64,000 nucleotides of DNA. Origin: a virus. The notes beneath the pieces were generated by a model. That model was not told where the DNA came from, did no database searches, and saw only the letters and a list, made by a program, of their open reading frames with translations. Shown here piece after piece: positions 53,797 through 63,194 of this stretch. The translations under genes and the position numbers were made by a program. Every line of letters begins with the position of its first letter. Position 1 is the stretch's first letter. The DNA lies in the IMG/VR virus record IMGVR_UViG_3300045988_070924, positions 32,001 to 96,000 of that record; one strand, 5' to 3'.

Positions 53797-54441
53797 TTAA
53801 ATCCAACGTATCTTCTTCTTACCTTTCTTTGCAAGAATTTCATTTATTGCATTGAAAATAAGAGGAAATTTTTCTCCAGTTCTTGCACTATATGCAGGGT
53901 GAGGTATCTCAAGAACAGTACTCTCCTTGTTGATATAAGGTCTGAATGTGCTTGCTTGTGAACCAAACAGAACAAATATTATATCTGGATTGTACAGAGA
54001 CAGGTTCCTCAGAAGTTTTGATATGAAAGGTCTCCATATCATAACATGAGAACCTATCTTGTTCATCTCTACAGTAAGTGCAGAGTTAATCATAAGTATC
54101 CCCTGTTCTGCCCAGGATATTAATGAAGGGTCAAAGTTAGAATCTTTTTCTGAAATATGCAAGTCTTCAAACAAAGAATTTTTGATAACCTTCAATGAAG
54201 GGGATAGTTGTTCAGGCAAAGTTTCTGACTTATTTGCAAACAGTATACCAGTTGCAACACCTTTCTGAGGATATGGGTCTTGTCCAAGAAATACTACCCT
54301 ACAGTTATCAGGACTACAGTATGAGAATGCCTTGAAAATGTCATTCTTATCAGGACAAAAAGGTCTTCCAGATTTCATGACCTTAGACCAAGGAACAGCC
54401 ATACTATCTGCTGATATTATATTATCCCAAGTCATAGGCAT
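53797..54441 (-). CDS. ung: Uracil-DNA glycosylase (family-1-like)
   Basis: 'FLGQDPYPQKGVATGILFA' corresponds to motif A GQDPYH. 'FVLFGSQA' and 'IPHPAYSA' correspond to the motif B HPSPLS region. Confidence 0.75.
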   Translation of the reverse strand: MPMTWDNIISADSMAVPWSKVMKSGRPFCPDKNDIFKAFSYCSPDNCRVVFLGQDPYPQKGVATGILFANKSETLPEQLSPSLKVIKNSLFEDLHISEKDSNFDPSLISWAEQGILMINSALTVEMNKIGSHVMIWRPFISKLLRNLSLYNPDIIFVLFGSQASTFRPYINKESTVLEIPHPAYSARTGEKFPLIFNAINEILAKKGKKKIRWI

Positions 54442-55193
54442 CCTATTATATCCTGAACAATATCCTCTCTTGACAAGAACTTTTGCATATCTTCCTTGAA
54501 GGTCTGAGGACTGCCTACTTTTGCAGGTCTTTTAATCCACTCTGAAAGGTCCTCAATGATAACTTTAGGAGTTGTAGGCTTACCTAATACTCTGCTCCCT
54601 ATAAATTTAAAACTCTTTGATACAAGTGAAGGTATAGCCTTGGAGATTATACTCTTCTTGAGCATATCATCCTTAAGAAACACCTGAGGGGACACTCTCA
54701 CATTAAGGGCAGAAATGGTTGCCTTCATTTTTGTTGGTCTGTAAGGAATAGTTACAGGGGTCATGCCTGTAACAGTAACAGTATACAGGACAAGAGGTTT
54801 CATATGTTTGTCAAATATCATCCCATTTCCTCCATAATAAACCTCTTCTTTATCTGTCATAACCTTAGAGAGTCTTGCACCATATGCTGGAGTTTCTCTG
54901 AAGAAATATTTTATGATAGCATAAGAAGTGTTCCTCATGATAATATTATCATAATATAGAGGCATAGCAATCTGCTCCCACTTTATCTTTGGCTGTGCCA
55001 AGATAGTCTCAAGATAAGGAAGCATAGCCATAGGTACTTCAAATGAACCAGTATGATTCACATCTGTACATATGTATCCATTCAGTATATCATGCTTTTC
55101 AAGACAGGAATAATTTGTAACAAATGCACCTGTATCTGCATATATAGTATTGAAAGGATAAGTGATGGTGTCATTGTAAGATGTTGAAGTCAT
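54432..55193 (-). CDS. Hypothetical protein, last gene of the E1/JAB cassette
   Basis: The track start 55199 is TTG. ATG 55193 lies 2 nt after the E1 stop. The 3' end overlaps ung by 10 nt. No motif recognised. Confidence 0.3.
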   Translation of the reverse strand: MTSTSYNDTITYPFNTIYADTGAFVTNYSCLEKHDILNGYICTDVNHTGSFEVPMAMLPYLETILAQPKIKWEQIAMPLYYDNIIMRNTSYAIIKYFFRETPAYGARLSKVMTDKEEVYYGGNGMIFDKHMKPLVLYTVTVTGMTPVTIPYRPTKMKATISALNVRVSPQVFLKDDMLKKSIISKAIPSLVSKSFKFIGSRVLGKPTTPKVIIEDLSEWIKRPAKVGSPQTFKEDMQKFLSREDIVQDIIGCL

Positions 55194-55195
55194 AA

Positions 55196-56143
55196 TCAAG
55201 CCTCCGTAGTAAACATCATCAAAGAAGCATCATATGATGTAAGGAATGGAAGACTCCTATCTATCATAGGCTTTTCATCACCCTCAAGGTCATTGGCACA
55301 GAAATTTACAAAGAGGTTAGTCATGATAGAACCAATCATATTAGCCATGAAAGTTGTCTGCTTATAACTACAGAGTGTGGCATCAGCCTCATCATCTGAG
55401 AACAGCCAGTCTCTCTCATACCTCTCCATATCATAACTGGCATCACCCTGTATACACAGAACCTGGAACTCCTCTGCTGCAAGCCTTCCATCTATGAATA
55501 GGCAGTGCTTTCTTAGTCCTTCAGGTATGCTCATTACATGGTGTTTCCATACATTGTAGAATATCCTTCTGGCAGTCATATTGTCAAATCCACAAATCAT
55601 GATGTCAGTAGGAGGGGAATCTTCTGTGAATCTTTCATTGACAGAGGTTATGGAATAATAATTACTGTAATCATGCATCATGTTAGTCACGGCTTGAGCC
55701 TTAGTCTTGTTGAGGTCAAGAACACTGTAGAACTGCCCCGACATATTTGCCATTTCTACAGTATCATCATCATATATTCTTATGTGACTAGGCTTCATTC
55801 TTGAAAGAAGGAAAGCCACATAAGAACCTATACCCCCTAAACCTGCAAGAGTGATTATCTTCTCCTGCACTTTATTGTACCACACTGCACTACTGAACCT
55901 TGAAGTACTCGTGTCAATGGTAATAGTCCCAGAGTTGGTAGAAATCCTATCATTAGGCAGCTCAGGAACAGTAATTTCACTGCTTATACTTGGGTACTCT
56001 GGGTATACAGCCTGTTCTTCTATCTCTTCAGAAGTATTCTCTTCAGGAACAGCGGTCTCAATATGCCCCTCATTGAGCTGGTTTATAAAATCACTAACTG
56101 CTTCAGCCAGTCTAACTGACGTACTTTGTGTATCCTGTGTCAT
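55196..56143 (-). CDS. ThiF/MoeB/E1-like adenylyltransferase-fold protein
   Basis: 'KIITLAGLGGIGSYVAFLL' is a GxGGxG Rossmann loop. 'IRIYDDDTVEMANMSGQ' fits the D-x-D-x-V-x3-N-[LM]-x-x-Q strand. 'DIMICGFDNMTAR' and 'CLFIDGR' also fit. An ~85-aa acidic N-terminal extension is present. Confidence 0.75.
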   Translation of the reverse strand: MTQDTQSTSVRLAEAVSDFINQLNEGHIETAVPEENTSEEIEEQAVYPEYPSISSEITVPELPNDRISTNSGTITIDTSTSRFSSAVWYNKVQEKIITLAGLGGIGSYVAFLLSRMKPSHIRIYDDDTVEMANMSGQFYSVLDLNKTKAQAVTNMMHDYSNYYSITSVNERFTEDSPPTDIMICGFDNMTARRIFYNVWKHHVMSIPEGLRKHCLFIDGRLAAEEFQVLCIQGDASYDMERYERDWLFSDDEADATLCSYKQTTFMANMIGSIMTNLFVNFCANDLEGDEKPMIDRSLPFLTSYDASLMMFTTEA

Positions 56144-57276
56144 GCTATTTCCTCCTCAAGTCTAAACTTGATAGCATCAAGTATCTTGTTATCAGGCAAT
56201 TGCTCACACATACTAAGCAATCTAGCTGCCACTGCCTTGGCTATCATATCAGAATCCTCATTTTCAACTTCCTTCCAGTTAGTATACCATGTAAGGAACT
56301 CTATATAGTGGTCAAGCCAGTTCTCAAGGTCCTGAGGGTCAGGGAACCTTCTGAGGAAAGCCCTCTCCATTACAGATGAACACCACTTCTCCATATCAAA
56401 CTTGTCACTAAAACCAGCTGTGATAGAACCAGTTACTAACTGTACAAGCAGTCTTTGAGCCAACTCTTGAGGAACTTCAATATTGACCCAACTCCCATCT
56501 GTTTCTGAAGGAGATGTTTCTTCAGCAGGGAACAATGTTGGCTGTATTGATATTCTCTGTGAGGGAAACTTTCCAGTAAATGATACTCCCTCTTCTCTCT
56601 CAGAGGATACGTCTTCCTCCTTGGTAGAAGGGAAGTTAGTTCTTCTTACAGTAGTTTTCTCTGCTTCTATTTCTTTGATTCTCTGAGTAACTTCATCCCT
56701 GATAGATGTATCTTCCTGTACATCTATCTCAAGAGGAAATGCTTCAAGGTATTCATTGATAGTAGATTCCACTTCCTCAGACTTACTTTCTCCACCAAAG
56801 GTAGGATAGGTTATCTTAGAGGTCTGAAGACTCACTCTTCTGGTAATCTTGGCAGTATATACACCTACATTATTCACTATAAGAGAGAGGAAATGAGGCA
56901 TATCCATACCTTCCTCTATAAGAGTGTTTCTGTCTGTTCCACTGAAGAATGTTGCCATTTGGTTATGTGAGTGGATAAGTCCCGTATAGCAGTCAAGCAA
57001 GTCATTCATTGCCTGATAGGTAACAATATCAGCACTATGGTCAAACTCTGTATAGGTAGCAGAACCTATATCAGATACATAAATGTCCTTACAAGTAATA
57101 ACCAAAGAATTATCCTCAAAAGAACCTTCTACTGTGTAGAACAGTGTTCCAGACCATTCTTTGGTAGGGAAATGATAACACCATTCCCTTATCTTTCTCT
57201 GAACTAAATCAGGTATTATGAGTTTATACGTAGAACGTCTGTCTATCAAGCTCAGACTCTTCTTCTTTTCTTCCAT
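56140..57276 (-). CDS. JAB/MPN+ (JAMM) metalloprotease-domain protein with long C-terminal extension
   Basis: 'TKEWSGTLFY' carries the upstream Glu. 'HSHNQMATFFSGTD' is exactly HxHx7Sx2D. Has an ATGA overlap with the E1-like gene. Confidence 0.85.
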   Translation of the reverse strand: MEEKKKSLSLIDRRSTYKLIIPDLVQRKIREWCYHFPTKEWSGTLFYTVEGSFEDNSLVITCKDIYVSDIGSATYTEFDHSADIVTYQAMNDLLDCYTGLIHSHNQMATFFSGTDRNTLIEEGMDMPHFLSLIVNNVGVYTAKITRRVSLQTSKITYPTFGGESKSEEVESTINEYLEAFPLEIDVQEDTSIRDEVTQRIKEIEAEKTTVRRTNFPSTKEEDVSSEREEGVSFTGKFPSQRISIQPTLFPAEETSPSETDGSWVNIEVPQELAQRLLVQLVTGSITAGFSDKFDMEKWCSSVMERAFLRRFPDPQDLENWLDHYIEFLTWYTNWKEVENEDSDMIAKAVAARLLSMCEQLPDNKILDAIKFRLEEEIA

Positions 57277-58393
57277 ATCTTAAATTTACAACTTTACAAA
57301 TAGCTGATACTATATCTCTTATAACACTTTCTTGCAGTAAGGTAGCTGGATGCTGTTCAGAGGAAGGAGTATCATCTATGTGTAATTTAATCTCTCTTCC
57401 TTTGAAGTTACATACAAGTTTACCCTCATAGTTCCTATAATTACTGATACTTTCATTAGCCCTGATAGTATAGATTTTACCATCAACTATCATATACTCT
57501 CCAAGGATGTTCATATCCTTCAAATACCGAAAATCATACAACCTCCTGTATGGATTGTCTTCAAGATTGAACCATTCTATGAACTTATTACTAATCAAGA
57601 TGGCAGCATCATAATAAGACATTCCAAGACAGTATGTTCCATTTGAGTATTCCATAGGAAGAGAGACATTCTTAAGTAAGTATCTTGTGAAATCTGGTAT
57701 GATTCCAAGGTCTACACCCCTAAATTCATATGTAGGTCTTGCTACCTTTCCATAAAATCCTCTGGCTACATAAAGGAACTTCTGTGTCACACCAGAAGTT
57801 GTGTTGGCACCTATAGCTTCAAGTTTCCTATAAGGCACTCCTTCAACTGACTCTACTTGAGTAAAGTCTTCAAGTTCACTACAGAATAACTGCCACATAT
57901 CTTCATCAAACTCCCTGTTAAGACCTCCAATAGTAACATTGATAGGTCCACTTCCAGTACAAGGTGTAAGAAAGTTTAAGAAGTTAGAGGTATTTATTCC
58001 AGGAATATGGGAATGCATATAGTTAGCCCTCATATGACTTAATGGGTAAGTAGCTCTATTGAGATAGAACTTTCCTATAAGTTGCCCCTCTGTATCAATC
58101 TTTACTTTAGCATAAAGGTCTTGTATATCTACAGACTTGTTATACTCATTAGTGACTCTCACTTGAGGAAACCATACAAGTATAAATATACCACTTGGGA
58201 ATGATATAGCATCTGTATTATTCTTCCCTAATGATTTATTTTCACAGAACTTCTCCTTAGTACAGAACCCTCGCATATCCACTTTATCTTCTCCAAAGTA
58301 ATCACTGAATATTTCAAGGATTCTTTTTGGTTTCTCCATCAGGCTGTCATACAGATTTTCCCATTCTTTTTTCTGTTCATCTGTCATATTCAT
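57224..58393 (-). CDS. Hypothetical protein; N-terminal ~170 aa possibly E2/UBC-like
   Basis: N-terminal helix, then 3-4 predicted beta strands ('GIFILVWFPQVRV', 'DIQDLYAKVKID', 'LIGKFYLNR'), then 'YMHSHIPG'-x13-'PCTGSGP'. This is reminiscent of the HPN...Cys flap. Overlaps the JAB gene by 53 nt. Confidence 0.3.
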   Translation of the reverse strand: MNMTDEQKKEWENLYDSLMEKPKRILEIFSDYFGEDKVDMRGFCTKEKFCENKSLGKNNTDAISFPSGIFILVWFPQVRVTNEYNKSVDIQDLYAKVKIDTEGQLIGKFYLNRATYPLSHMRANYMHSHIPGINTSNFLNFLTPCTGSGPINVTIGGLNREFDEDMWQLFCSELEDFTQVESVEGVPYRKLEAIGANTTSGVTQKFLYVARGFYGKVARPTYEFRGVDLGIIPDFTRYLLKNVSLPMEYSNGTYCLGMSYYDAAILISNKFIEWFNLEDNPYRRLYDFRYLKDMNILGEYMIVDGKIYTIRANESISNYRNYEGKLVCNFKGREIKLHIDDTPSSEQHPATLLQESVIRDIVSAICKVVNLRYGRKEEESELDRQTFYV

Positions 58394-58397
58394 CCCT

Positions 58398-58445
58398 ATA
58401 AAAAAGGGGGATAAGGGAGAGGAAATTCATCCTAACCCTTATCCC
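58398..58445 (-). terminator. Rho-independent terminator (minus strand) between the Ubl gene and the rest of the cassette
   Basis: 10-bp stem gggataaggg/cccttatccc (58408-58417/58436-58445). On the minus strand it is followed by CCTTTTTTAT. Confidence 0.7.
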
Positions 58446-58451
58446 TCATTA

Positions 58452-59123
58452 TTAGAAGTTAAACTGTTCAGCAAGTTCATCATAGGACTGCTCCCTTTCT
58501 ACAGGAAGAGCAGGCTCACCATTGACAACACCCCAGATGTTATCAGCATCATGCTGCATGAAAACTCCCTTAGATACCATCTCATCAAGAAGGTTTCTAA
58601 GATTAGACATCATTTCTTTTCCTGATGCTGGCATAGTATAGGCATCTGCCTTAACTACTTTCTCCTTTGCTATAGGAGCAGGAGTATGTTTAGGAGTCTT
58701 CTTGGCTACATTTTCACCAGCTTTCTCCTTCTTCTCTATATAGGAGATAAGGATAGCAGTTGAACACTGGGTGAAGTTCTTTCCCTCATGTTCCTGAATT
58801 TTTCCTTGAAGACCAAGCTCCTTAACTCTTGCATAAGCTTCTTTCCTGTCCATAGCACCAGACTTAATTTTCTTCTGAGGTGCAGTGACCATGAACACAA
58901 GGTCATTAGTTACCTGACCCTTCCAAGGAATGTTAGAAGGGAGGATAGACTCATCAGATGTAAGGATAGTCTTTGAAGCAGCCTCCTTAAATACACAATC
59001 TGAATCATACTTTACCTGTTTTTCTCTCAGTTCATTCTTAAGCTCACCAAGAGTGGTAGCATTTGACTCAAACACAACTTTGCTCTGTGTGCTCTCTACA
59101 AGCACAGTAACTTTTCTACTCAT
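58452..59123 (-). CDS. Protein with N-terminal ubiquitin-like (beta-grasp) domain and helix-extension-helix-like middle domain
   Basis: Residues 4-82 show a beta-beta-alpha-beta...beta pattern: 'KVTVLVE', 'SKVVFES', helix 'TLGELKNELREK', 'CVFKE', 'LVFMVTA'. 'RKEAYARVKELGLQGKI....STAILISYIEKKE' resembles Rho-N/SAP/HeH motifs. Confidence 0.45.
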   Translation of the reverse strand: MSRKVTVLVESTQSKVVFESNATTLGELKNELREKQVKYDSDCVFKEAASKTILTSDESILPSNIPWKGQVTNDLVFMVTAPQKKIKSGAMDRKEAYARVKELGLQGKIQEHEGKNFTQCSTAILISYIEKKEKAGENVAKKTPKHTPAPIAKEKVVKADAYTMPASGKEMMSNLRNLLDEMVSKGVFMQHDADNIWGVVNGEPALPVEREQSYDELAEQFNF

Positions 59124-59135
59124 TTTTGTTTTTTT

Positions 59136-60113
59136 TTAGTTTACTAATTCATATATAACCCCTCTCAGAACCTCTCTTCCATGATTTTTTACTAAATCCG
59201 AAGGGTCCTTGCTCTCCCACTTCTCAGGTATTTCAATCTGAGTAACATTAAATTTCTCAGCAATCATCTCACCATACATCCTTCCATGGTTCTCTTCACT
59301 TTGAAAGTCATTATCATAAAGTACATAAACCTTATTATATCTGTCTTTCAACTGTTGAACTACATGCTCCTTTGGTATATAACCTTCCCCCTGCAAGCTA
59401 AGGGCAGGAATACCTGTATTGGACCATATAGCAAGGGCATCTTTTCTTGATGAAGTGATAATCAGTTTATCACCTTTCTCTGGAATCTTAGTCCATAAAT
59501 CCCATACAGAAGAGTCATGTTTAGACATCCACTTATACTCTTTTGAGTAGGGCTGGTAAATCTTGAATGAGACTATACCATCTTTCCTTTCTACATATAC
59601 ATAAGCATACTTCTCTGCTGGAATAGGATAAGAGTGTCCATTTTTAGTAAAGATAATATGAGATATGGGATATATTTCTCCAAATTTAAGCCAAGGCAGT
59701 GATATTCCATAGGAATCCCAATAGGCAATATCATAGTCCCTCCATTCCCTAACTCTAACTTCAACTTTGCCTGCTGACTTCCTGTACACCTTTACTCCAT
59801 GCTTTCTCATAGGGGCGGGAGCAGGCATATCTTCAAGGATTCTTTTATACACCTTATCTTTGGAGACATTCCACATTTTGGCAAGAAGGTCATACAGACT
59901 TCCTCCTTCTCCACTTCCAAAATCTTTGAACCACAGACTATTGGTCTTGCTGTTTATGAACAATCCCAATGAAGGGTTATTGTCCTGTCTGAGTGGAGAA
60001 TTAATTACTTCAGGAACACAAGTAATACCTAAATACTTGTGTGCAATATCAAAGTCTGAATATAGGTCATTGACCTTCTCAATAGAAGTACTGTCTGAAC
60101 CTCTTGCTACCAT
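59136..60113 (-). CDS. DnaG/Toprim-type DNA primase with cysteine-less zinc-finger-like N-terminus
   Basis: 'SPLRQDNNPS...WFKDFGSGEGGSLYDLL' aligns by eye to the CHC2 finger 'CPFHxDxxPS...yhCFGCGxxGdvi.f', with all ligands replaced. The Toprim-like part is 'LIITSSRKDAL' and 'VYVLYDNDF' (DxD). Confidence 0.6.
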   Translation of the reverse strand: MVARGSDSTSIEKVNDLYSDFDIAHKYLGITCVPEVINSPLRQDNNPSLGLFINSKTNSLWFKDFGSGEGGSLYDLLAKMWNVSKDKVYKRILEDMPAPAPMRKHGVKVYRKSAGKVEVRVREWRDYDIAYWDSYGISLPWLKFGEIYPISHIIFTKNGHSYPIPAEKYAYVYVERKDGIVSFKIYQPYSKEYKWMSKHDSSVWDLWTKIPEKGDKLIITSSRKDALAIWSNTGIPALSLQGEGYIPKEHVVQQLKDRYNKVYVLYDNDFQSEENHGRMYGEMIAEKFNVTQIEIPEKWESKDPSDLVKNHGREVLRGVIYELVN

Positions 60114-61470: not shown

Positions 61471-61860
61471 TTAGTTGTTACTTCCAAAGTAATACTCCTT
61501 CATAGTATCCACAACATACCCAAGGTCATTAGGTATATACAGTGGAAACATTCCCACAGGAGATTTTGCTGGATACTGTCCATCATCATTGGTTACAAAC
61601 TCTCTGATGGACTTCTTTTCTTTCTCATCATATGAGGCTTTTCCATAAAGGACTACTTCAAACTTACCCTCAGGAGTGATATACTGGTCAACCATGTTTC
61701 CAGTACTCTTATATCTGTAAGACAGACTGTCCCCATTCTTATCCTTGTACTCCTCATAATGAGCAAGACAAATCATGTTCTTATCTTCAGGAACCTTGTT
61801 GATTGCATCAAAGATAAGTCCCATACCATAGCCAATCTGCTTTGGTGTCAAGTTGTTATC
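61471..61860 (-). CDS. RecA-fold/AAA ATPase (Sak4-like?), exon 2
   Basis: The listed ORF starts at GTG 61863, with no ATG. The frame joins to exon 1 if ~968 nt are removed. Together the two halves are ~250 aa, the size of core-only phage ATPases. Confidence 0.45.
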   Translation of the reverse strand, partial: DNNLTPKQIGYGMGLIFDAINKVPEDKNMICLAHYEEYKDKNGDSLSYRYKSTGNMVDQYITPEGKFEVVLYGKASYDEKEKKSIREFVTNDDGQYPAKSPVGMFPLYIPNDLGYVVDTMKEYYFGSNN

Positions 61861-61998
61861 CACAGGGCTTTTTATCCCTATGTTCTACATCTTCTTGCAT
61901 AGTTGATGTAGTTCAGCATATATTTTCATCCTATTTAATATAGGAGTTGGATACTCTTGGATACATTATATTCTCTATAAATTATAGAGGTTCAGTAT

Positions 61999-62712
61999 CT
62001 ATGCGTTACACTGTGCAGTTCTTTTATCTACTGCATTTAGCACGGTATTAAGTGCTTTATCCCTTTTTCTTTTTAAGAACACTGTAGCATTTTTATATAA
62101 ATAGTCAAATATTGGTCTTCTGACTTTTATACTATAACTAAAATGTAGACTCCAATAAGGAGTAGTTTTTCTAACCTCTCTGTATATAACCCATTTTAGT
62201 TCAGGAATAGCCTTGATAAATCTATCCTTAATCTGTTCTGCAAATTTAGGAGAGTTACAAATCATACTGAAATGTCTATCTCCTATAGACCCATCTCCAT
62301 CTATAAATCCTCTGATAAAATCTCTTTCAAATTCTTCAGGAATATTAGGAAATTCAAAATCAGCATCATAGGTCTTTCTTGGCTGTATATTGTATAAAGT
62401 CCTTAAGTCATTTATAAGTTCCTTATCACATATCTGAAGAATAGTAGTTTGTTTTCTGTTACCTTCAGGTTGATAAAATCTAAGATTATTATTAGGAGCT
62501 ATCTCTTTTTGTATTAACCTTATAATTTCATCATCCTCTGATACACAACCAAATCTAAGTCTTACTAATTTGCTAGGTCTGTCTTTTCTTATTGACTCCT
62601 CTATAGAGCCGTCTGCTACTAAATAACCTAAAATATAGGCTTTAACTTCAGAATCTATATTTCTGAAGTAATCACTTTTGTGTTCTTTCTTTCCAGGAAT
62701 AAAACTTCTCAT
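61999..62712 (-). CDS. LAGLIDADG homing endonuclease (double-motif)
   Basis: 'LGYLVADGSI' and 'RGFIDGDGSI'. Start ATG 62712 ('MRSFIPGKK') is preferred over the listed 62787 because the promoter box lies at 62734-62741. Confidence 0.85.
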   Translation of the reverse strand: MRSFIPGKKEHKSDYFRNIDSEVKAYILGYLVADGSIEESIRKDRPSKLVRLRFGCVSEDDEIIRLIQKEIAPNNNLRFYQPEGNRKQTTILQICDKELINDLRTLYNIQPRKTYDADFEFPNIPEEFERDFIRGFIDGDGSIGDRHFSMICNSPKFAEQIKDRFIKAIPELKWVIYREVRKTTPYWSLHFSYSIKVRRPIFDYLYKNATVFLKRKRDKALNTVLNAVDKRTAQCNA

Positions 62713-62733
62713 AATTATCATATATTTGGTTGG

Positions 62734-62764
62734 CAAATATACAAATAAATAATGAGAAATGCAA
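62734..62764 (-). promoter_or_regulatory. Bacteroidota-type promoter (TTG-N20-TAtaTTTG) inside the intron, upstream of the LAGLIDADG ORF
   Basis: On the minus strand, TAtaTTTG is at plus 62734-62741 and TTG at plus 62762-62764, with the same 21-nt offset. Confidence 0.55.
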
Positions 62765-62828
62765 TACCCTTCACCGTTTTTACCCAATTATTTTCACATA
62801 GATTACTCTATGCAGGGACACACATTCT

Positions 62829-63194
62829 ATCCCATCCTCCCTTGAGAGCATTCTTCATATAGAAGTCCTGAGATATGTAGTTCATATCATCAAGAACTAT
62901 GTTCTCATAAGGGGAATTAGCAAGCAATTCAATTACTGCTGCAATGGTCTTTGCATCATTAGAGATAAGTCTGTTCCCAGATGCTATCTCAGCAGGGAAA
63001 GTCTTGTCTGTTGGCTGACTCTTAACCTTGGCAATCTTATACTGAGAAGCAGCACCTCTAAAAGGAAGAGGTTTATTCACACAGCTAATCAGATAAGTCT
63101 TGGCTGGGTCAAGCCCTTTAAGTCCCAATTCAGGAATAGCACCAATTGAGGTACTCTTCCCAAATCCACTTTTTGCAAGCACTAATGCTTTCAT
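62829..63194 (-). CDS. RecA-fold/AAA ATPase (Sak4-like?), exon 1
   Basis: Walker A 'LAKSGFGKST' and Walker B 'NIVLDDMNY'. The listed ORF reads 6 extra codons ('RMCVPA*') into the insert. Confidence 0.55.

What the first reader, a model, noticed from the sequence alone, without database searches (positions are those of the whole stretch)
54432..59123. Phage-borne ubiquitin-like conjugation-type cassette (Ubl / E2-like? / JAB / E1-ThiF / unknown) inside the replication operon
Seen in sequence:
- 55196-56143 has a ThiF/MoeB/E1 adenylation fold: GxGGxG 'LAGLGGIGSY', 'YDDDTVEMANMSGQ', 'ICGFDNMTAR'.
- 56140-57276 has an exact JAMM signature, 'HSHNQMATFFSGTD' (HxHx7Sx2D), with the upstream Glu in 'KEWSG'.
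- 58452-59123 begins with an ~85-aa segment whose strand/helix pattern fits a beta-grasp ubiquitin-like domain.
- 57224-58393 has a helix, a beta-meander and 'HSH...PC', reminiscent of an E2 flap.
- The genes are tightly coupled. The 389-aa and JAB genes overlap by 53 nt. JAB and E1 share an ATGA overlap. The next ATG lies 2 nt after the E1 stop. The last gene overlaps ung by 10 nt.

Established knowledge: E1+JAB+Ubl(+E2) neighbourhoods define bacterial Ub-like conjugation systems. These include the prokaryotic Ub-antecedent operons of Iyer/Burroughs/Aravind, type II CBASS Cap2/Cap3, Bil, and PRTRC cassettes on plasmids and ICEs. The same neighbourhoods also define Ubl sulfur-carrier pathways (ThiS/ThiF, MoaD/MoeB, CysO/Mec+).

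Inference: a lytic crAss-like phage carrying such a set, wired between primase and UDG/RNR rather than to tail assembly, is not a module I know as described. Three roles are possible:
1. conjugating a Ubl to phage or host proteins during replication;
2. antagonising host Ubl-based defence;
3. supplying activated sulfur for a nucleic-acid modification.
Basis: partly seen in the sequence, partly recalled or inferred. Interest (0 to 1): 0.9.

Follow-up and report, generated by a model that had tools for sequence, protein, structure and literature searches.

The report
Phage-encoded ubiquitin-like protein activation cassette
A crAss-like gut phage, like all its relatives that infect Bacteroidota, carries a fixed gene set that looks like a virus-owned ubiquitin-type protein-tagging system: a small ubiquitin-like tag, an unknown Cys/His enzyme, a JAB protease and an E1 activating enzyme. 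The proposed E2 enzyme could not be confirmed, and what the tag is attached to is unknown.

Summary
Five tightly coupled minus-strand genes lie between primase and UDG.

- **E1:** 55196-56143 is a ThiF/E1 adenylating enzyme (Pfam 4e-17).
- **JAB:** 56140-57276 has a complete, invariant JAMM motif.
- **Ubl:** residues 1-89 of 58452-59123 are predicted as a beta-grasp. Foldseek hits are almost all ubiquitin, SUMO, NEDD8 or bacterial Ubl, but weak (E >= 0.01). The domain ends in a Gly invariant in 32/32 divergent homologues.
  - After that Gly the tail varies from 3 to about 200 residues. One relative has a stand-alone 83-aa Ubl.
  - In two lineages a homing-endonuclease gene splits the gene just after that Gly.
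- **E2 claim not supported:** the 389-aa protein gives a confident model (pLDDT 88) with no PDB match, no Pfam E2 hit in 100 members, and no hhalign similarity to four human UBC E2s. It is a phage-only family with invariant H129, C145 and E181. It sits where BilB (E2) sits in Bil operons.
- **Not PRTRC**, and no sulfur-transfer parts were found.
- **Distribution:** the core Ubl-X-JAB-E1 is strictly syntenic in about 240 loci from crAss001-like and Flavobacterium FpV4-like phages.
- **Prior annotation:** crAss001 gp76 and gp77 were already labelled ThiF and metalloprotease. No paper found treats the set as a system.

Verdict: a new variant of bacterial Ubl systems, encoded by phages; target unknown.

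The parts
58857..59123 (-). Ubiquitin-like beta-grasp domain: residues 1-89 of the 223-aa protein, ending KKIKSG.
   Evidence: The AF2 secondary-structure order is b-b-a-b-...-b (E3-9, E14-20, H25-34, E44-48, E75-80). At least 45 of the top 50 Foldseek PDB hits are beta-grasp or Ub-like domains, with probabilities up to 0.98 but E >= 0.011. G89 is invariant in 32/32 and S88 in 31/32 divergent homologues. Translation checked.
58452..58856 (-). C-terminal extension of the Ubl protein (residues 90-223). It has a three-helix HeH/SAP-like module (93-134), a disordered K/P/A/E linker (137-164), a helical end and an acidic tail. It is presumed to be released by cleavage after G89.
   Evidence: AF2 helices and low-pLDDT linker. 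Weak HeH, SAP and DUF6913 Pfam hits. Beyond the SG motif the extension varies from 3 to about 200 residues among relatives. It is encoded as a separate ORF in L018, L037 and L056.
57224..58393 (-). X389: a phage-specific 389-aa protein with a conserved Cys/His centre. It occupies the E2 position of the operon. Its fold has no match among solved structures.
   Evidence: AF2 pLDDT 88.2, pTM 0.81. No PDB Foldseek hit with E <= 1e-3. BFVD hits are only uncharacterised crAss-like and other podophage proteins. The family has 2056 50%-identity representatives. It co-occurs with the E1 in 74 of 74 GenBank phage records.
57959..58015 (-). X389 conserved loop, H127-S128-H129 ... P144-C145 (YMHSH ... PCTGSGP): the candidate active site.
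   Evidence: S128, H129, C145, G147, E181 and S182 are invariant in 36/36 divergent sequences. N82, R113, Y125 and H127 are conserved in 34-35 of 36. Coordinates checked.
56140..57276 (-). JAB/JAMM metalloprotease (N-terminal ~160 residues) with a family-specific C-terminal helical region.
   Evidence: Prok-JAB PF14464 hits at 8.9e-5 (22.8 bits, cut-off 25). All 13 of 13 family members hit it. There is a weak profile match to Pyrococcus JAMM1 (5lda).
56932..56973 (-). JAMM metal-binding motif H102-S-H104-x7-S112-x2-D115. The upstream Glu40 lies at 57157-57159.
   Evidence: Read directly from the sequence. The motif residues never differ in the ORFs that cover them (E40 27/27, H104 30/30, S112 and D115 32/32); the 3 Met at H102 and all gaps lie in shorter, mostly split ORFs and look like ORF-calling artefacts.
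55196..56143 (-). E1-like (ThiF-family) adenylating enzyme. The core is residues ~78-315, preceded by a variable acidic N-terminal extension.
   Evidence: ThiF PF00899 at 4e-17. PADLOC Cap2 E1-E2 at 2e-12 and BilD at 7e-6. Profile against PDB: MccB 1.8e-10, UBA5 3e-10. R82, GxGGxxS, D125, D127, N133, Q137, K148, D187, N188 and R192 are invariant in 33/33.
55370..55372 (-). E1 Cys258 (TLCSYKQT): the only invariant cysteine and the candidate thioester site.
   Evidence: Invariant in 33/33. Its equivalence to the catalytic Cys of UBA5 could not be shown, because profile alignments stop at residue ~195.
54432..55199 (-). Fifth gene (255 aa from the listed TTG start; the probable start is the ATG at 55193), function unknown. 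It is conserved only within the crAss-like clade.
   Evidence: No hit in Pfam, NCBIfam, PHROGs, PADLOC or by PDB profile. It is present in the crAss-like loci. A profile built without FpV4 does not detect the FpV4 ORF at the same position, and the fifth ORF varies from 166 to 434 aa in FpV4-like phages.
59136..60113 (-). DnaG-type primase: the upstream flank, which is constant (context).
   Evidence: phrog_12622 DNA primase at 9e-53. It lies upstream of the cassette in nearly all loci, directly in the crAss-like ones and with UDG or small ORFs in between in FpV4-like ones.
53797..54441 (-). Family-1 uracil-DNA glycosylase: the downstream flank (context). In FpV4-like phages it lies upstream of the Ubl gene instead.
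   Evidence: NCBIfam ung at 1.8e-41. Positions are compared.

Best explanation
The core of the cassette is four genes in the order Ubl, X389, JAB, E1. It is a phage-encoded ubiquitin-like protein activation and conjugation module.

Proposed mechanism:
1. The 223-aa protein is a Ubl precursor. It is an N-terminal beta-grasp domain ending ...KKIKSG(89), fused to a dispensable, lineage-variable C-terminal part (here an HeH-like helical protein).
2. The JAMM protease cuts after Gly89 to expose the Ubl C-terminus. It probably also reverses conjugates.
3. The E1-like enzyme binds ATP and adenylates Gly89. It may then hold the Ubl as a thioester on its only invariant cysteine, C258.
4. The Ubl is handed to, or used by, X389. 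X389 sits where the E2 sits in Bil operons and has an invariant Cys145/His129/Glu181 centre, but it is not a recognisable E2. Either X389 acts as a new type of transfer enzyme or ligase, or conjugation is E2-independent, as in archaeal SAMP or Thermus TtuB systems.
5. The acceptor is unknown. It could be phage or host proteins present during the replication phase. The fifth gene may add specificity or may be unrelated.

Shown here: the E1 and JAB identities, intact catalytic motifs, a Ubl-like fold at moderate confidence, the invariant terminal Gly, modularity at that Gly, and strict co-inheritance. Inferred: cleavage, adenylation, thioester formation, transfer, and any target.
For: - **E1.** ThiF scores 62.6 bits against a cut-off of 28.1. 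It is related to UBA5, MccB, UBA3 and ThiF and to the Cap2 and BilD models. The nucleotide-site residues and C258 are invariant in 33/33.
- **JAB.** The full E...HxH...S..D motif never differs in the ORFs that cover it. All 13 of 13 members hit Prok-JAB.
- **Ubl fold.** The AF2 strand/helix order matches a beta-grasp. At least 45 of the top 50 Foldseek PDB hits are Ub-like beta-grasp domains, including the bacterial Ubl entries 8tyx_A and 8tyz_B.
- **Ubl terminus.** G89 is invariant in 32/32, preceded by S/A and basic residues. After the Gly, sequence and length diverge completely.
- **Stand-alone form.** L183 encodes an 83-aa Ubl ending KVKSG-NKN.
- **Gene split.** In L018 and in L037/L056 an HNH homing-endonuclease gene sits immediately after the Gly codon, compared with 97%-identical unsplit relatives. 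L037 has lost the endonuclease ORF but keeps both halves intact. Rfam finds no intron there.
- **Synteny.** Ubl-X389-JAB-E1 is invariant over about 240 loci spanning E1 identities down to about 34%. UDG and the fifth gene move or change.
- **Co-occurrence.** X389 and this E1 occur together in 74 of 74 GenBank phage records.
- **Gene order.** It equals BilA (Ubl)-BilB (E2)-BilC (JAB)-BilD (E1), as described in PMC11601603.
- **X389 centre.** H129, C145 and E181 are invariant in 36/36.
Against: - No E2 could be recognised by Pfam or PADLOC models, hhalign or Foldseek.
- The Ubl fold rests on a model with mean pLDDT 63. No Foldseek hit reaches E <= 1e-3. Sequence profiles find no Ub, ThiS or Prok_Ub family.
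- The E1 lacks the canonical Arg of the N-x-x-R-Q ATP-phosphate motif, which is Gly in 32/33. It also has no conserved CxxC zinc motif: C258 is its only invariant Cys.
- The Ubl ends in Ser-Gly, not Gly-Gly.
- No target, E3 or acceptor is identifiable.
- The split gene might still be joined by an unrecognised intron.
- There are no experimental data of any kind.
Confidence: 0.55

Rival explanations
1. Counter-defence version of the same chemistry. The phage uses its own Ubl, E1 and JAB to interfere with host Ubl-based immunity such as Bil, type II CBASS Cap2/Cap3 or Bub. For example, its JAB could strip host conjugates (Cap3-like), or its Ubl could compete with or cap targets such as tail fibres. 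This is a rival about purpose, not about mechanism.
For: The closest defence-library matches of the E1 are the Cap2 E1-E2 and BilD models, and the JAB weakly matches the CBASS JAB model. The gene order matches Bil. The cassette occurs only in phages: 74 GenBank phage records, and no genuine bacterial locus. A 2026 preprint speculates the same for a UBA5-like gut-phage family.
Against: The cassette sits in the replication module and is universally retained in two old phage lineages with very different hosts (Bacteroides, Flavobacterium). That is unusual for anti-defence genes, which are normally patchy. The similarities to Cap2, Cap3 and Bil are weak and generic. No host system was examined.
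Confidence: 0.15
2. Sulfur-carrier pathway of the ThiS/MoaD/CysO/TtuB type. The Ubl is thiocarboxylated at its C-terminal Gly by the E1. It then donates sulfur to a cofactor or to a nucleic-acid modification, with X389 as the sulfur-inserting enzyme.
For: The best NCBIfam hits of the E1 are ThiF models (1.4e-16). JAB + E1 + Ubl neighbourhoods with a C-terminal extension on the Ubl are known for CysO/Mec+ and QbsE/QbsD (established knowledge; Iyer et al. 2006, PMC1779556). GenBank annotates the E1 as a 'thiamine biosynthesis protein'.
Against: All ThiF and MoeB equivalog scores are far below their cut-offs (60.8 against 159, and so on). No rhodanese, cysteine desulfurase, PP-loop or ThiG/MoaE-like partner was found in the cassette. 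The Ubl ends in SG, not GG. The E1 has no CxxC zinc motif. The Ubl is fused to a large helical protein.
Confidence: 0.08
3. Processing only. The beta-grasp is a cleavable N-terminal chaperone or solubility domain for the HeH protein, as ubiquitin is for ribosomal-protein fusions or lambda TAPI in tail assembly. JAB, and perhaps X389 acting as a Cys/His peptidase as in the lambda gpK JAB + NlpC/P60 pair, merely mature it. The E1 adenylates something else, such as a peptide C-terminus in the manner of MccB or PaaA.
For: MccB and PaaA are among the top PDB relatives of the E1 (1.8e-10). The lambda and T1 tail clusters combine a Ubl, a JAB and a Cys peptidase without an E1 (PMC1779556). X389 has a Cys/His/Glu set that could be a protease triad.
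Against: The extension that would be the 'matured product' is not conserved, and it is absent in L183 (three residues only). The Ubl, E1, JAB and X389 are always present. The invariant part is therefore the Ubl itself, not its fusion partner. No MccA-like peptide gene was seen.
Confidence: 0.12
4. There is no functional unit. The five genes are neighbours only because the gene order of the replication module is frozen in this phage group.
For: Flanking genes (primase, UDG, p185, nuclease, RNR) are also syntenic within the crAss001-like clade.
Against: Between the crAss-like and FpV4-like lineages UDG changes side, the fifth gene is replaced and the flanks differ. The four-gene block nevertheless stays contiguous and in the same order. 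E1, JAB and Ubl are a known functional triad. Overlapping start and stop codons indicate translational coupling.
Confidence: 0.03

Closest known systems
Bil (bacterial ISG15-like) operons, BilA-BilB-BilC-BilD (Hor et al. 2024; Chambers et al. 2024; described in PMC11601603)
   Same: There are four separate genes in the same order: Ubl, then the second gene (E2 in Bil), then a JAB/JAMM peptidase, then E1. The Ubl has a beta-grasp fold and a C-terminal Gly. The E1 weakly matches the BilD model (6.9e-6).
   Different: The cassette is encoded by lytic phages, not by bacteria as an anti-phage system. The second gene is not a recognisable E2. The BilA, BilB and BilC models do not hit. The Ubl has a single beta-grasp, ends in Ser-Gly, and is usually fused to a long C-terminal protein. 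A fifth gene is attached.
Archaeal SAMP/UbaA/HvJAMM1 and Thermus TtuB/TtuC systems (E2-independent Ubl conjugation)
   Same: A Ubl, a single E1-like enzyme and a JAMM protease are sufficient for conjugation without an E2 (established knowledge; e.g. PMC4443979, listed). This shows the phage set could work even if X389 is not an E2.
   Different: Those Ubls end in Gly-Gly and double as sulfur carriers. The SAMP-activating E1 model scores only 18.7 bits against a cut-off of 450. They have no X389 counterpart.
Lambda/T1 tail-assembly Ubl cluster (TAPI Ubl + TAPK JAB/NlpC-P60) (Iyer, Burroughs and Aravind 2006, PMC1779556)
   Same: Both are phage-encoded. Both have a Ubl with a conserved C-terminal Gly, followed by a linker and another domain, and predicted to be cut by a neighbouring JAB. 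Both have a second Cys/His enzyme next to it.
   Different: The lambda cluster has no E1 and lies in the tail module, not the replication module. X389 is not an NlpC/P60 fold by Pfam or Foldseek.
Type II CBASS Cap2 (E2-E1 fusion) / Cap3 (JAB)
   Same: The best PADLOC hits of the E1 are Cap2 models (2.2e-12), and the JAB weakly hits the CBASS JAB model (0.0068).
   Different: There is no E2-E1 fusion and no CD-NTase, and the substrate is a beta-grasp Ubl rather than a nucleotidyltransferase C-terminus. It is phage-encoded.
PRTRC (ParB-related, ThiF-related cassette) of plasmids and ICEs
   Same: It contains a ThiF-family E1 together with JAB-, E2- and Ubl-like proteins on a mobile element.
   Different: PRTRC_ThiF scores 34.8 bits against a cut-off of 144.75. 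No PRTRC A-F or ParB model matches any cassette protein.
UBA5-UFM1 (eukaryotic)
   Same: UBA5 is among the best solved-structure relatives of the E1 (3e-10 to 4e-9). UFM1, like this Ubl, ends in a single Gly exposed by removal of a short extension (the UFM1 point rests on my own knowledge).
   Different: The similarity covers only the Rossmann half. The phage E1 lacks the NxxR arginine and the zinc site. There is no UFC1-like E2.

Membership tests
ThiF/E1-like adenylating superfamily (PF00899) | The profile match passes the curated threshold. | tested here: met
   62.6 bits against a cut-off of 28.1, E 4e-17.
ThiF/E1-like adenylating superfamily (PF00899) | A Gly-rich Rossmann loop GxGGxG and the Mg/ATP residues (DxD, N..Q, K, and the Asp of the 'DN' motif). 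| tested here: met
   G101, G103, G104, D125, D127, N133, Q137, K148 and D187 are invariant in 33/33.
ThiF/E1-like adenylating superfamily (PF00899) | The conserved Arg of the N-x-x-R-Q motif, which contacts the ATP phosphates. | tested here: not met
   It is aligned to NMNR of UBA5 and NLTRQ of MccB, and the phage family has NMSGQ. The position is Gly in 32/33.
ThiF/E1-like adenylating superfamily (PF00899) | A catalytic cysteine in the crossover region (needed for E1s that form thioesters). | tested here: inconclusive
   C258 is the only invariant Cys (33/33). Profile alignments to UBA5 and MccB end before it.
JAB/JAMM (MPN+) metalloproteases (Prok-JAB PF14464) | The E-x(n)-H-x-H-x(7)-S-x(2)-D metal-binding motif. 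| tested here: met
   E40, H102, H104, S112 and D115 are present and never differ in the ORFs that cover them.
JAB/JAMM (MPN+) metalloproteases (Prok-JAB PF14464) | The profile match passes the curated threshold. | tested here: not met
   22.8 bits against a cut-off of 25 for the window protein. However, all 13 of 13 family members hit the model at E <= 0.1, the best at 3.4e-5.
Ubiquitin-like beta-grasp modifiers | A beta-grasp fold. | tested here: inconclusive
   The AF2 element order fits, but pLDDT is 66-78 for the first four elements and below 50 for residues 48-74. The Foldseek top 50 are almost all Ub-like domains, with probabilities up to 0.98 but best E 0.011. The low-confidence loop is a clade-specific insert.
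Ubiquitin-like beta-grasp modifiers | A C-terminal Gly at the end of the domain that can be exposed. | tested here: met
   G89 is invariant in 32/32. Extensions run from 3 to about 200 residues. There is a stand-alone 83-aa form and a gene split after the Gly codon.
Ubiquitin-like beta-grasp modifiers | Sequence membership in a known Ubl family (ubiquitin, ThiS, MoaD, Prok_Ub). | tested here: not met
   No Pfam or NCBIfam hit in 14 members. hhalign against Ub, NEDD8, SUMO1 and UFM1 gives 0.2% probability.
Ubiquitin-like beta-grasp modifiers | Covalent attachment to targets. | not testable with these tools
   Needs biochemistry or mass spectrometry.
E2/UBC superfamily (UQ_con, Prok-E2_A to E) | A profile match to any E2 family. 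| tested here: not met
   No E2 family appears among 100 members scanned at E <= 10. PADLOC, NCBIfam and PHROGs give none.
E2/UBC superfamily (UQ_con, Prok-E2_A to E) | A UBC fold. | tested here: not met
   The model has pLDDT 88.2. No PDB hit has E <= 1e-3 and no E2 appears in the top 50, although bacterial E2 structures (for example in 8tyz) are in the library.
E2/UBC superfamily (UQ_con, Prok-E2_A to E) | A conserved catalytic Cys preceded by a conserved His/Asn loop after a beta-meander. | tested here: met
   The element order is helix, three long strands, a loop with H127-S-H129, then C145, then two helices. H129 and C145 are invariant in 36/36. This is a resemblance only and does not establish membership.
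Bil system | Four genes: Ubl, E2, JAB and E1. | tested here: inconclusive
   The order and three of the four identities fit. The second gene is not an E2 by any test. Only BilD is hit, weakly.
Bil system | A bacterial anti-phage defence locus. | tested here: not met
   It is found only on phage genomes and phage-like contigs.
PRTRC cassette | PRTRC ThiF, proteins A-F and a ParB homologue pass the NCBIfam cut-offs. | tested here: not met
   PRTRC_ThiF scores 34.8 against 144.75. No other PRTRC model hits.
Ubl sulfur-carrier pathways (ThiS/ThiF, MoaD/MoeB, CysO/MoeZ) | An E1 equivalog score, a Gly-Gly terminus, and an associated sulfurtransferase or acceptor enzyme. | tested here: not met
   ThiF and MoeB equivalog scores are 19-61 bits against cut-offs of 152-449. 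The terminus is Ser-Gly. No rhodanese, desulfurase or PP-loop domain was found in the cassette.

The most novel reading that the evidence does not exclude
Abundant human-gut crAss-like phages and their Flavobacterium-phage relatives run their own ubiquitin-like conjugation pathway. In it, a previously unseen Cys/His enzyme fold (the X389 family, with more than 2000 clusters at 50% identity) takes the place of E2/E3. A Ubl released from a fusion precursor is attached to phage replication proteins or host proteins during infection. This would be the first virus-of-bacteria ubiquitin-like tagging system and a new class of Ubl-transfer enzyme.
Probability: 0.35. Interest if true: 0.85.

Novelty: new variant of a known kind. 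Interest (0 to 1): 0.7.

Why it matters
- Every ubiquitin-like conjugation system of bacteria characterised so far (type II CBASS, Bil, Bub) is a host weapon against phages.
- A complete Ubl/E1/JAB set that is universally kept by a major lineage of human-gut phages (crAss001-like) and by Flavobacterium phages would show that phages use the same chemistry for their own ends. Those ends could be regulating replication or neutralising host immunity.
- It also points to a large, structurally unmatched protein family with an invariant Cys/His centre as a candidate new Ubl-transfer enzyme.
- crAss001, DAC15 and FpV4 are cultured with their hosts, so the predictions can be tested directly: cleavage after the conserved Gly, adenylation, and conjugates in infected cells.

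Tried and rejected
1. **PRTRC membership: rejected** on NCBIfam scores.
   - Recurrent very weak Foldseek hits to EndoG-type nucleases and winged-helix domains (E ~1-4, probability <= 0.15) are not evidence.
3. **Sequence-profile detection of the Ubl failed**. Only the structure prediction plus context supports it.
4. **Aligning E1 C258 to the catalytic Cys of UBA5 failed.** The alignments stop at about residue 195.
5. **Fifth gene: nothing found** by Pfam, NCBIfam, PHROGs, PADLOC or a PDB profile. Its homology to the FpV4 fifth ORF is unsupported.
The diverse alignment came from the representative search instead.
7. **The Ubl alignment stayed shallow** (about 9 clusters at 80% identity), which limits that model.
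8. **E1 hits in Moraxella phages are not relatives of the cassette.** The one opened (Mcat22) is an ordinary ThiF gene next to methyltransferase and UbiB-like genes. The Acinetobacter-phage hits were not opened; they have no X389 hit.
9. **The bacterial genome scan gave only 5 MAG contigs** that look like crAss-like phage contigs.
10. **Group I intron at the Ubl split site: none found by Rfam**. None was found in the window at 50-64 kb either.
11. **No described system in the literature**, across eight searches.

Full report
**1. The observation**

The window region 54432-59123 holds five ORFs on the minus strand:

| Coordinates | Length | Name used here |
|---|---|---|
| 58452-59123 | 223 aa | Ubl223 |
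| 57224-58393 | 389 aa | X389 |
| 56140-57276 | 378 aa | JAB |
| 55196-56143 | 315 aa | E1 |
| 54432-55199 | 255 aa from the listed TTG start (probable start: the ATG at 55193) | Y255 |

- A DnaG-type primase (59136-60113) lies upstream and a family-1 UDG (53797-54441) lies downstream.
- Every junction it described is exact: the 53-nt overlap, ATGA, an ATG 2 nt after the E1 stop, and a 10-nt overlap with ung.

**2. What the window is**

- Megablast finds no GenBank phage.
- tblastn with the E1 finds crAss001 (Steigviridae, Kehishuvirus), PhiCrAssBcn phages, DAC15/17, Kolpuevirus, several 'cr' MAG phages and bajarodcaudo virus at 50-60% identity. It finds Flavobacterium psychrophilum phages FpV4/Fpv1-3/FPSV (Fipvunavirus) at 33%.
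- In crAss001 the same block is gp79-gp75, between primase gp80 and UDG gp74. gp77 is annotated 'metalloprotease domain containing protein' and gp76 'thiamine biosynthesis protein, ThiF'.
- The window is therefore a new crAss001-like phage. Two of the five genes had generic labels already.

**3. E1**

- Pfam ThiF scores 62.6 bits against a cut-off of 28.1.
- NCBIfam gives only sub-threshold hits to ThiF, MoeB, PRTRC_ThiF, cap2_3, UbaA and TcdA models.
- PADLOC gives Cap2 'E1-E2' models up to 2.2e-12 and BilD at 6.9e-6.
- Profiles against PDB sequences give MccB 1.8e-10, UBA5 3e-10, PaaA, UBA3, TcdA, ThiF and MoeB. All matches lie over the Rossmann half only.
- Over 33 divergent family members these residues are invariant: R82, G101, G103, G104, S107, D125, D127, N133, Q137, K148, D187, N188, R192, D218, R220, C258 and T263.
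- There are two departures from canonical E1s:
  - The Arg of N-x-x-R-Q is Gly (NMSGQ), as seen in the printed alignments to UBA5 (NMNR) and MccB (NLTRQ).
  - There is no conserved CxxC zinc site, because C258 is the only invariant Cys.
- I could not align C258 to a known catalytic Cys.

**4. JAB**

- The JAMM motif is complete: E40, then H102-S-H104-x7-S112-x2-D115.
- The motif never differs in the ORFs that cover it.
- The Pfam Prok-JAB score of the window protein is just under the cut-off (22.8 against 25). All 13 of 13 diverse members hit that model.
- The C-terminal ~200 residues are family-specific.

**5. The Ubl**

Sequence methods find nothing.

Structure prediction:
- An AF2 model built on a shallow alignment has mean pLDDT 63.
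- Residues 1-80 are predicted as strand, strand, helix, strand, (loop), strand. That is the beta-grasp order.
- Foldseek against the PDB returns almost exclusively Ub-like beta-grasp domains in the top 50: FAF1 UBL, SUMO1/2, ubiquitin variants, NEDD8, kindlin/FERM F1, SPN, DIX, PB1, RBD, CIDE-N, and the bacterial Ubl entries 8tyx_A and 8tyz_B.
- The probabilities reach 0.98, but the best E-value is only 0.011.
- The low-confidence loop (residues 48-74) coincides with an insert found only in the crAss-like clade. FpV4-like versions are about 75 residues long, the size of ubiquitin.

Comparative evidence, which is stronger:
- The domain ends in K-x-[IVT]-[KR]-S-G. The Gly is invariant (32/32) and the Ser nearly so (31/32).
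- After the Gly, sequences diverge completely and lengths range from 3 to about 200 residues.
- L183 encodes a stand-alone 83-aa protein ending KVKSG-NKN.
- In L018, and independently in the L037/L056 clade, a homologous HNH homing-endonuclease gene is inserted right after the Gly codon.
  - This leaves a 91-aa ORF (ending ...SGIC or ...SGKF, then a stop) and a separate ORF for the rest.
  - Unsplit relatives are 97% identical on either side of the insert.
  - L037 has lost the endonuclease ORF but keeps both halves.
  - Rfam detects no intron there, although it finds one in the UDG gene of L018.
- The two parts can therefore exist as separate polypeptides. That is what a JAB-processed Ubl precursor predicts.

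**6. X389**

- The family is very large: 2056 representatives at 50% identity with E <= 1e-3.
- With 148 of them as the alignment, AF2 gives pLDDT 88.2 and pTM 0.81.
- The N-terminal half is:
  - a long helix, a short strand, and a variable helical insert;
  - three 13-residue strands;
  - a structured loop carrying Y-x-H127-S-H129 and P-C145-x-G-x-G-P;
  - then two helices and an E181-S-x-x-G-x-P turn.
- The C-terminal half (231-373) is a separate alpha/beta domain.
Every test I could run was negative:
  - no Pfam E2 family in 100 members;
  - nothing in PADLOC, NCBIfam or PHROGs;
  - no PDB profile hit;
  - no Foldseek PDB hit with E <= 1e-3, and no E2 among the top 50;
  - hhalign against human E2s at 0.1% probability.
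- BFVD returns only uncharacterised proteins of crAss-like and other podophages.
- S128, H129, C145, G147, E181 and S182 are invariant in 36/36 divergent sequences. C171 is not conserved, which argues against an H/H/C/C zinc site and for a catalytic Cys/His centre.
- X389 is thus an enzyme-like, phage-only family of unmatched fold that occupies the E2 slot.

**7. Y255**

- No hit was found by any method.
- It is conserved only in the crAss-like clade. A profile built without FpV4 does not detect the FpV4 ORF in the same position.
- In FpV4-like phages the fifth ORF ranges from 166 to 434 aa.
- I treat it as associated, not as core.

**8. Distribution and linkage**

- In 80 IMG/VR loci found with the E1, and 80 found with X389, the order primase-Ubl-X389-JAB-E1-Y255-UDG is kept wherever the contig allows.
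- In a third set ranked by similarity to the FpV4 E1, from environmental phages with 80-126 kb contigs, Ubl-X389-JAB-E1 is always contiguous and in order. UDG sits upstream or is absent there, and the fifth gene changes.
- In GenBank phages X389 hits 74 records, from the same organism groups as the E1 hits. The four additional E1 hits are Moraxella and Acinetobacter phages. The Moraxella one I opened is an ordinary ThiF gene in a different gene context.
- A scan of 185,579 species genomes found only five MAG contigs that look like crAss-like phage contigs.
- The four-gene block is therefore a co-inherited, phage-specific module. All cultured hosts are Bacteroidota.

**9. Mechanism**

- The simplest reading is a Ubl activation and conjugation pathway:
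  1. JAB exposes Gly89.
  2. E1 adenylates it and perhaps forms a thioester on C258.
  3. X389 (Cys145) acts downstream, or conjugation is E2-independent as in SAMP/TtuB systems.
  4. JAB may also reverse conjugates.
- The gene order is that of Bil operons: BilA Ubl, BilB E2, BilC JAB, BilD E1 (PMC11601603).
- Steps 1 to 4 are inferred. What is shown is the identity and integrity of the parts and their linkage.
- The purpose is unknown. Constant placement next to primase, in a module with UDG, nucleases and RNR, suggests action during replication. An anti-defence role is equally open.
- The crAss-clade extension has an HeH/SAP-like three-helix module, a disordered basic linker and a conserved acidic tail (...YSDDEIDxMF in relatives). 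This resembles a DNA-binding hub protein. That is my speculation only.

**10. Comparison and novelty**

- Not PRTRC.
- Not type II CBASS: there is no E2-E1 fusion and no CD-NTase.
- Not a documented sulfur-carrier set: scores are far below equivalog cut-offs, there is no GG terminus, and there is no sulfurtransferase.
- Not the lambda TAPI/TAPK tail cluster: that has no E1 and lies in a different module.
- It is closest in layout to Bil, but it is phage-encoded, has a non-E2 second component, and has a fusion-precursor Ubl.
- Eight literature searches found no description of the cassette. The only mention is one sentence in a 2026 preprint about a gut-phage family matching UBA5 6H77.
- I class it as a new variant of a known kind. 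Interest is about 0.7.

**11. Limits**

- The Ubl model has modest confidence.
- I had no access to model coordinates, so active-site geometry and a manual E2 superposition could not be checked.
- No multimer predictions were possible.
The part of UBA5 that could be checked agrees.

Noticed in passing
L018:3162-4463; L037:3515-4444 (same contig as L148); L056:3162-4375 (same contig as L155): An HNH-type homing-endonuclease gene is inserted in the Ubl gene exactly after the conserved Gly codon, in two different phage clades. L037 has lost the endonuclease ORF but keeps the two gene halves. Rfam finds no intron there.
   Followed up: yes
L018:9667-9910 (also L013, L015, L017, L051, L075): A group I intron (RF00028, 84.8 bits) lies in the UDG region of L018. 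In several loci the best UDG ORF is only 164 aa and is displaced by about 1 kb, so UDG seems often to be interrupted in this phage group.
   Followed up: partly
window 61471-63194: A LAGLIDADG-type ORF (61999-62787, with motifs LGYLVADGSI and IRGFIDGDGSI) lies between a 128-aa P-loop fragment (62808-63194, GFGKST) and a 130-aa ORF (61471-61863). It looks like an ATPase gene split by a homing endonuclease. Rfam finds no intron at 50-64 kb.
   Followed up: partly
L183:3048-3299: A stand-alone 83-aa Ubl ending KVKSG-NKN in an environmental phage. In the same locus the JAB gene appears as two ORFs (115 + 288 aa).
   Followed up: partly
window 58452-58520 and homologues (alignment A6): The C-terminus of the Ubl-fusion protein carries a conserved acidic/hydrophobic tail (relatives: SPYSDDEIDxMF; here SYDELAEQFNF). 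It is reminiscent of the SSB C-terminal tip that recruits replication and repair proteins. This is a resemblance from memory only.
   Followed up: no
window 57224-57700 (X389 residues ~231-373): The C-terminal domain of X389 gave repeated but insignificant Foldseek hits to winged-helix DNA-binding domains (ORC2 C-terminus, ETS, Fur/PerR, STIV F93). The N-terminal half gave similar hits to EndoG-type nucleases (E 1-4).
   Followed up: no
L085-L089 (genome contigs): MAG contigs labelled Bacilli, Acholeplasmatales, Spirochaetia and Agathobacter carry the X389 gene. Two of the contigs are 94 kb and 111 kb, near the ~100 kb of a crAss-like genome. They are most likely mis-binned phage contigs.
   Followed up: partly
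window ~26000: GC skew and AT skew change sign at about 26 kb: positive over 1-26 kb and negative over 26-64 kb. This fits two oppositely transcribed genome arms.
   Followed up: no
L004 (Moraxella phage Mcat22 39192-39755): The distant E1 hit in Moraxella phage Mcat22 is a full-length canonical ThiF (PF00899, 9e-68). It lies between a small methyltransferase and an ABC1/UbiB-type kinase in an unannotated stretch at the end of the record, and it is unrelated to the cassette.
   Followed up: yes
window 55910-56143 (E1 residues 1-77): The E1 has a variable, acidic, probably disordered N-terminal extension. It is absent in FpV4 (228 aa) and much longer in crAss001 (385 aa).
   Followed up: no
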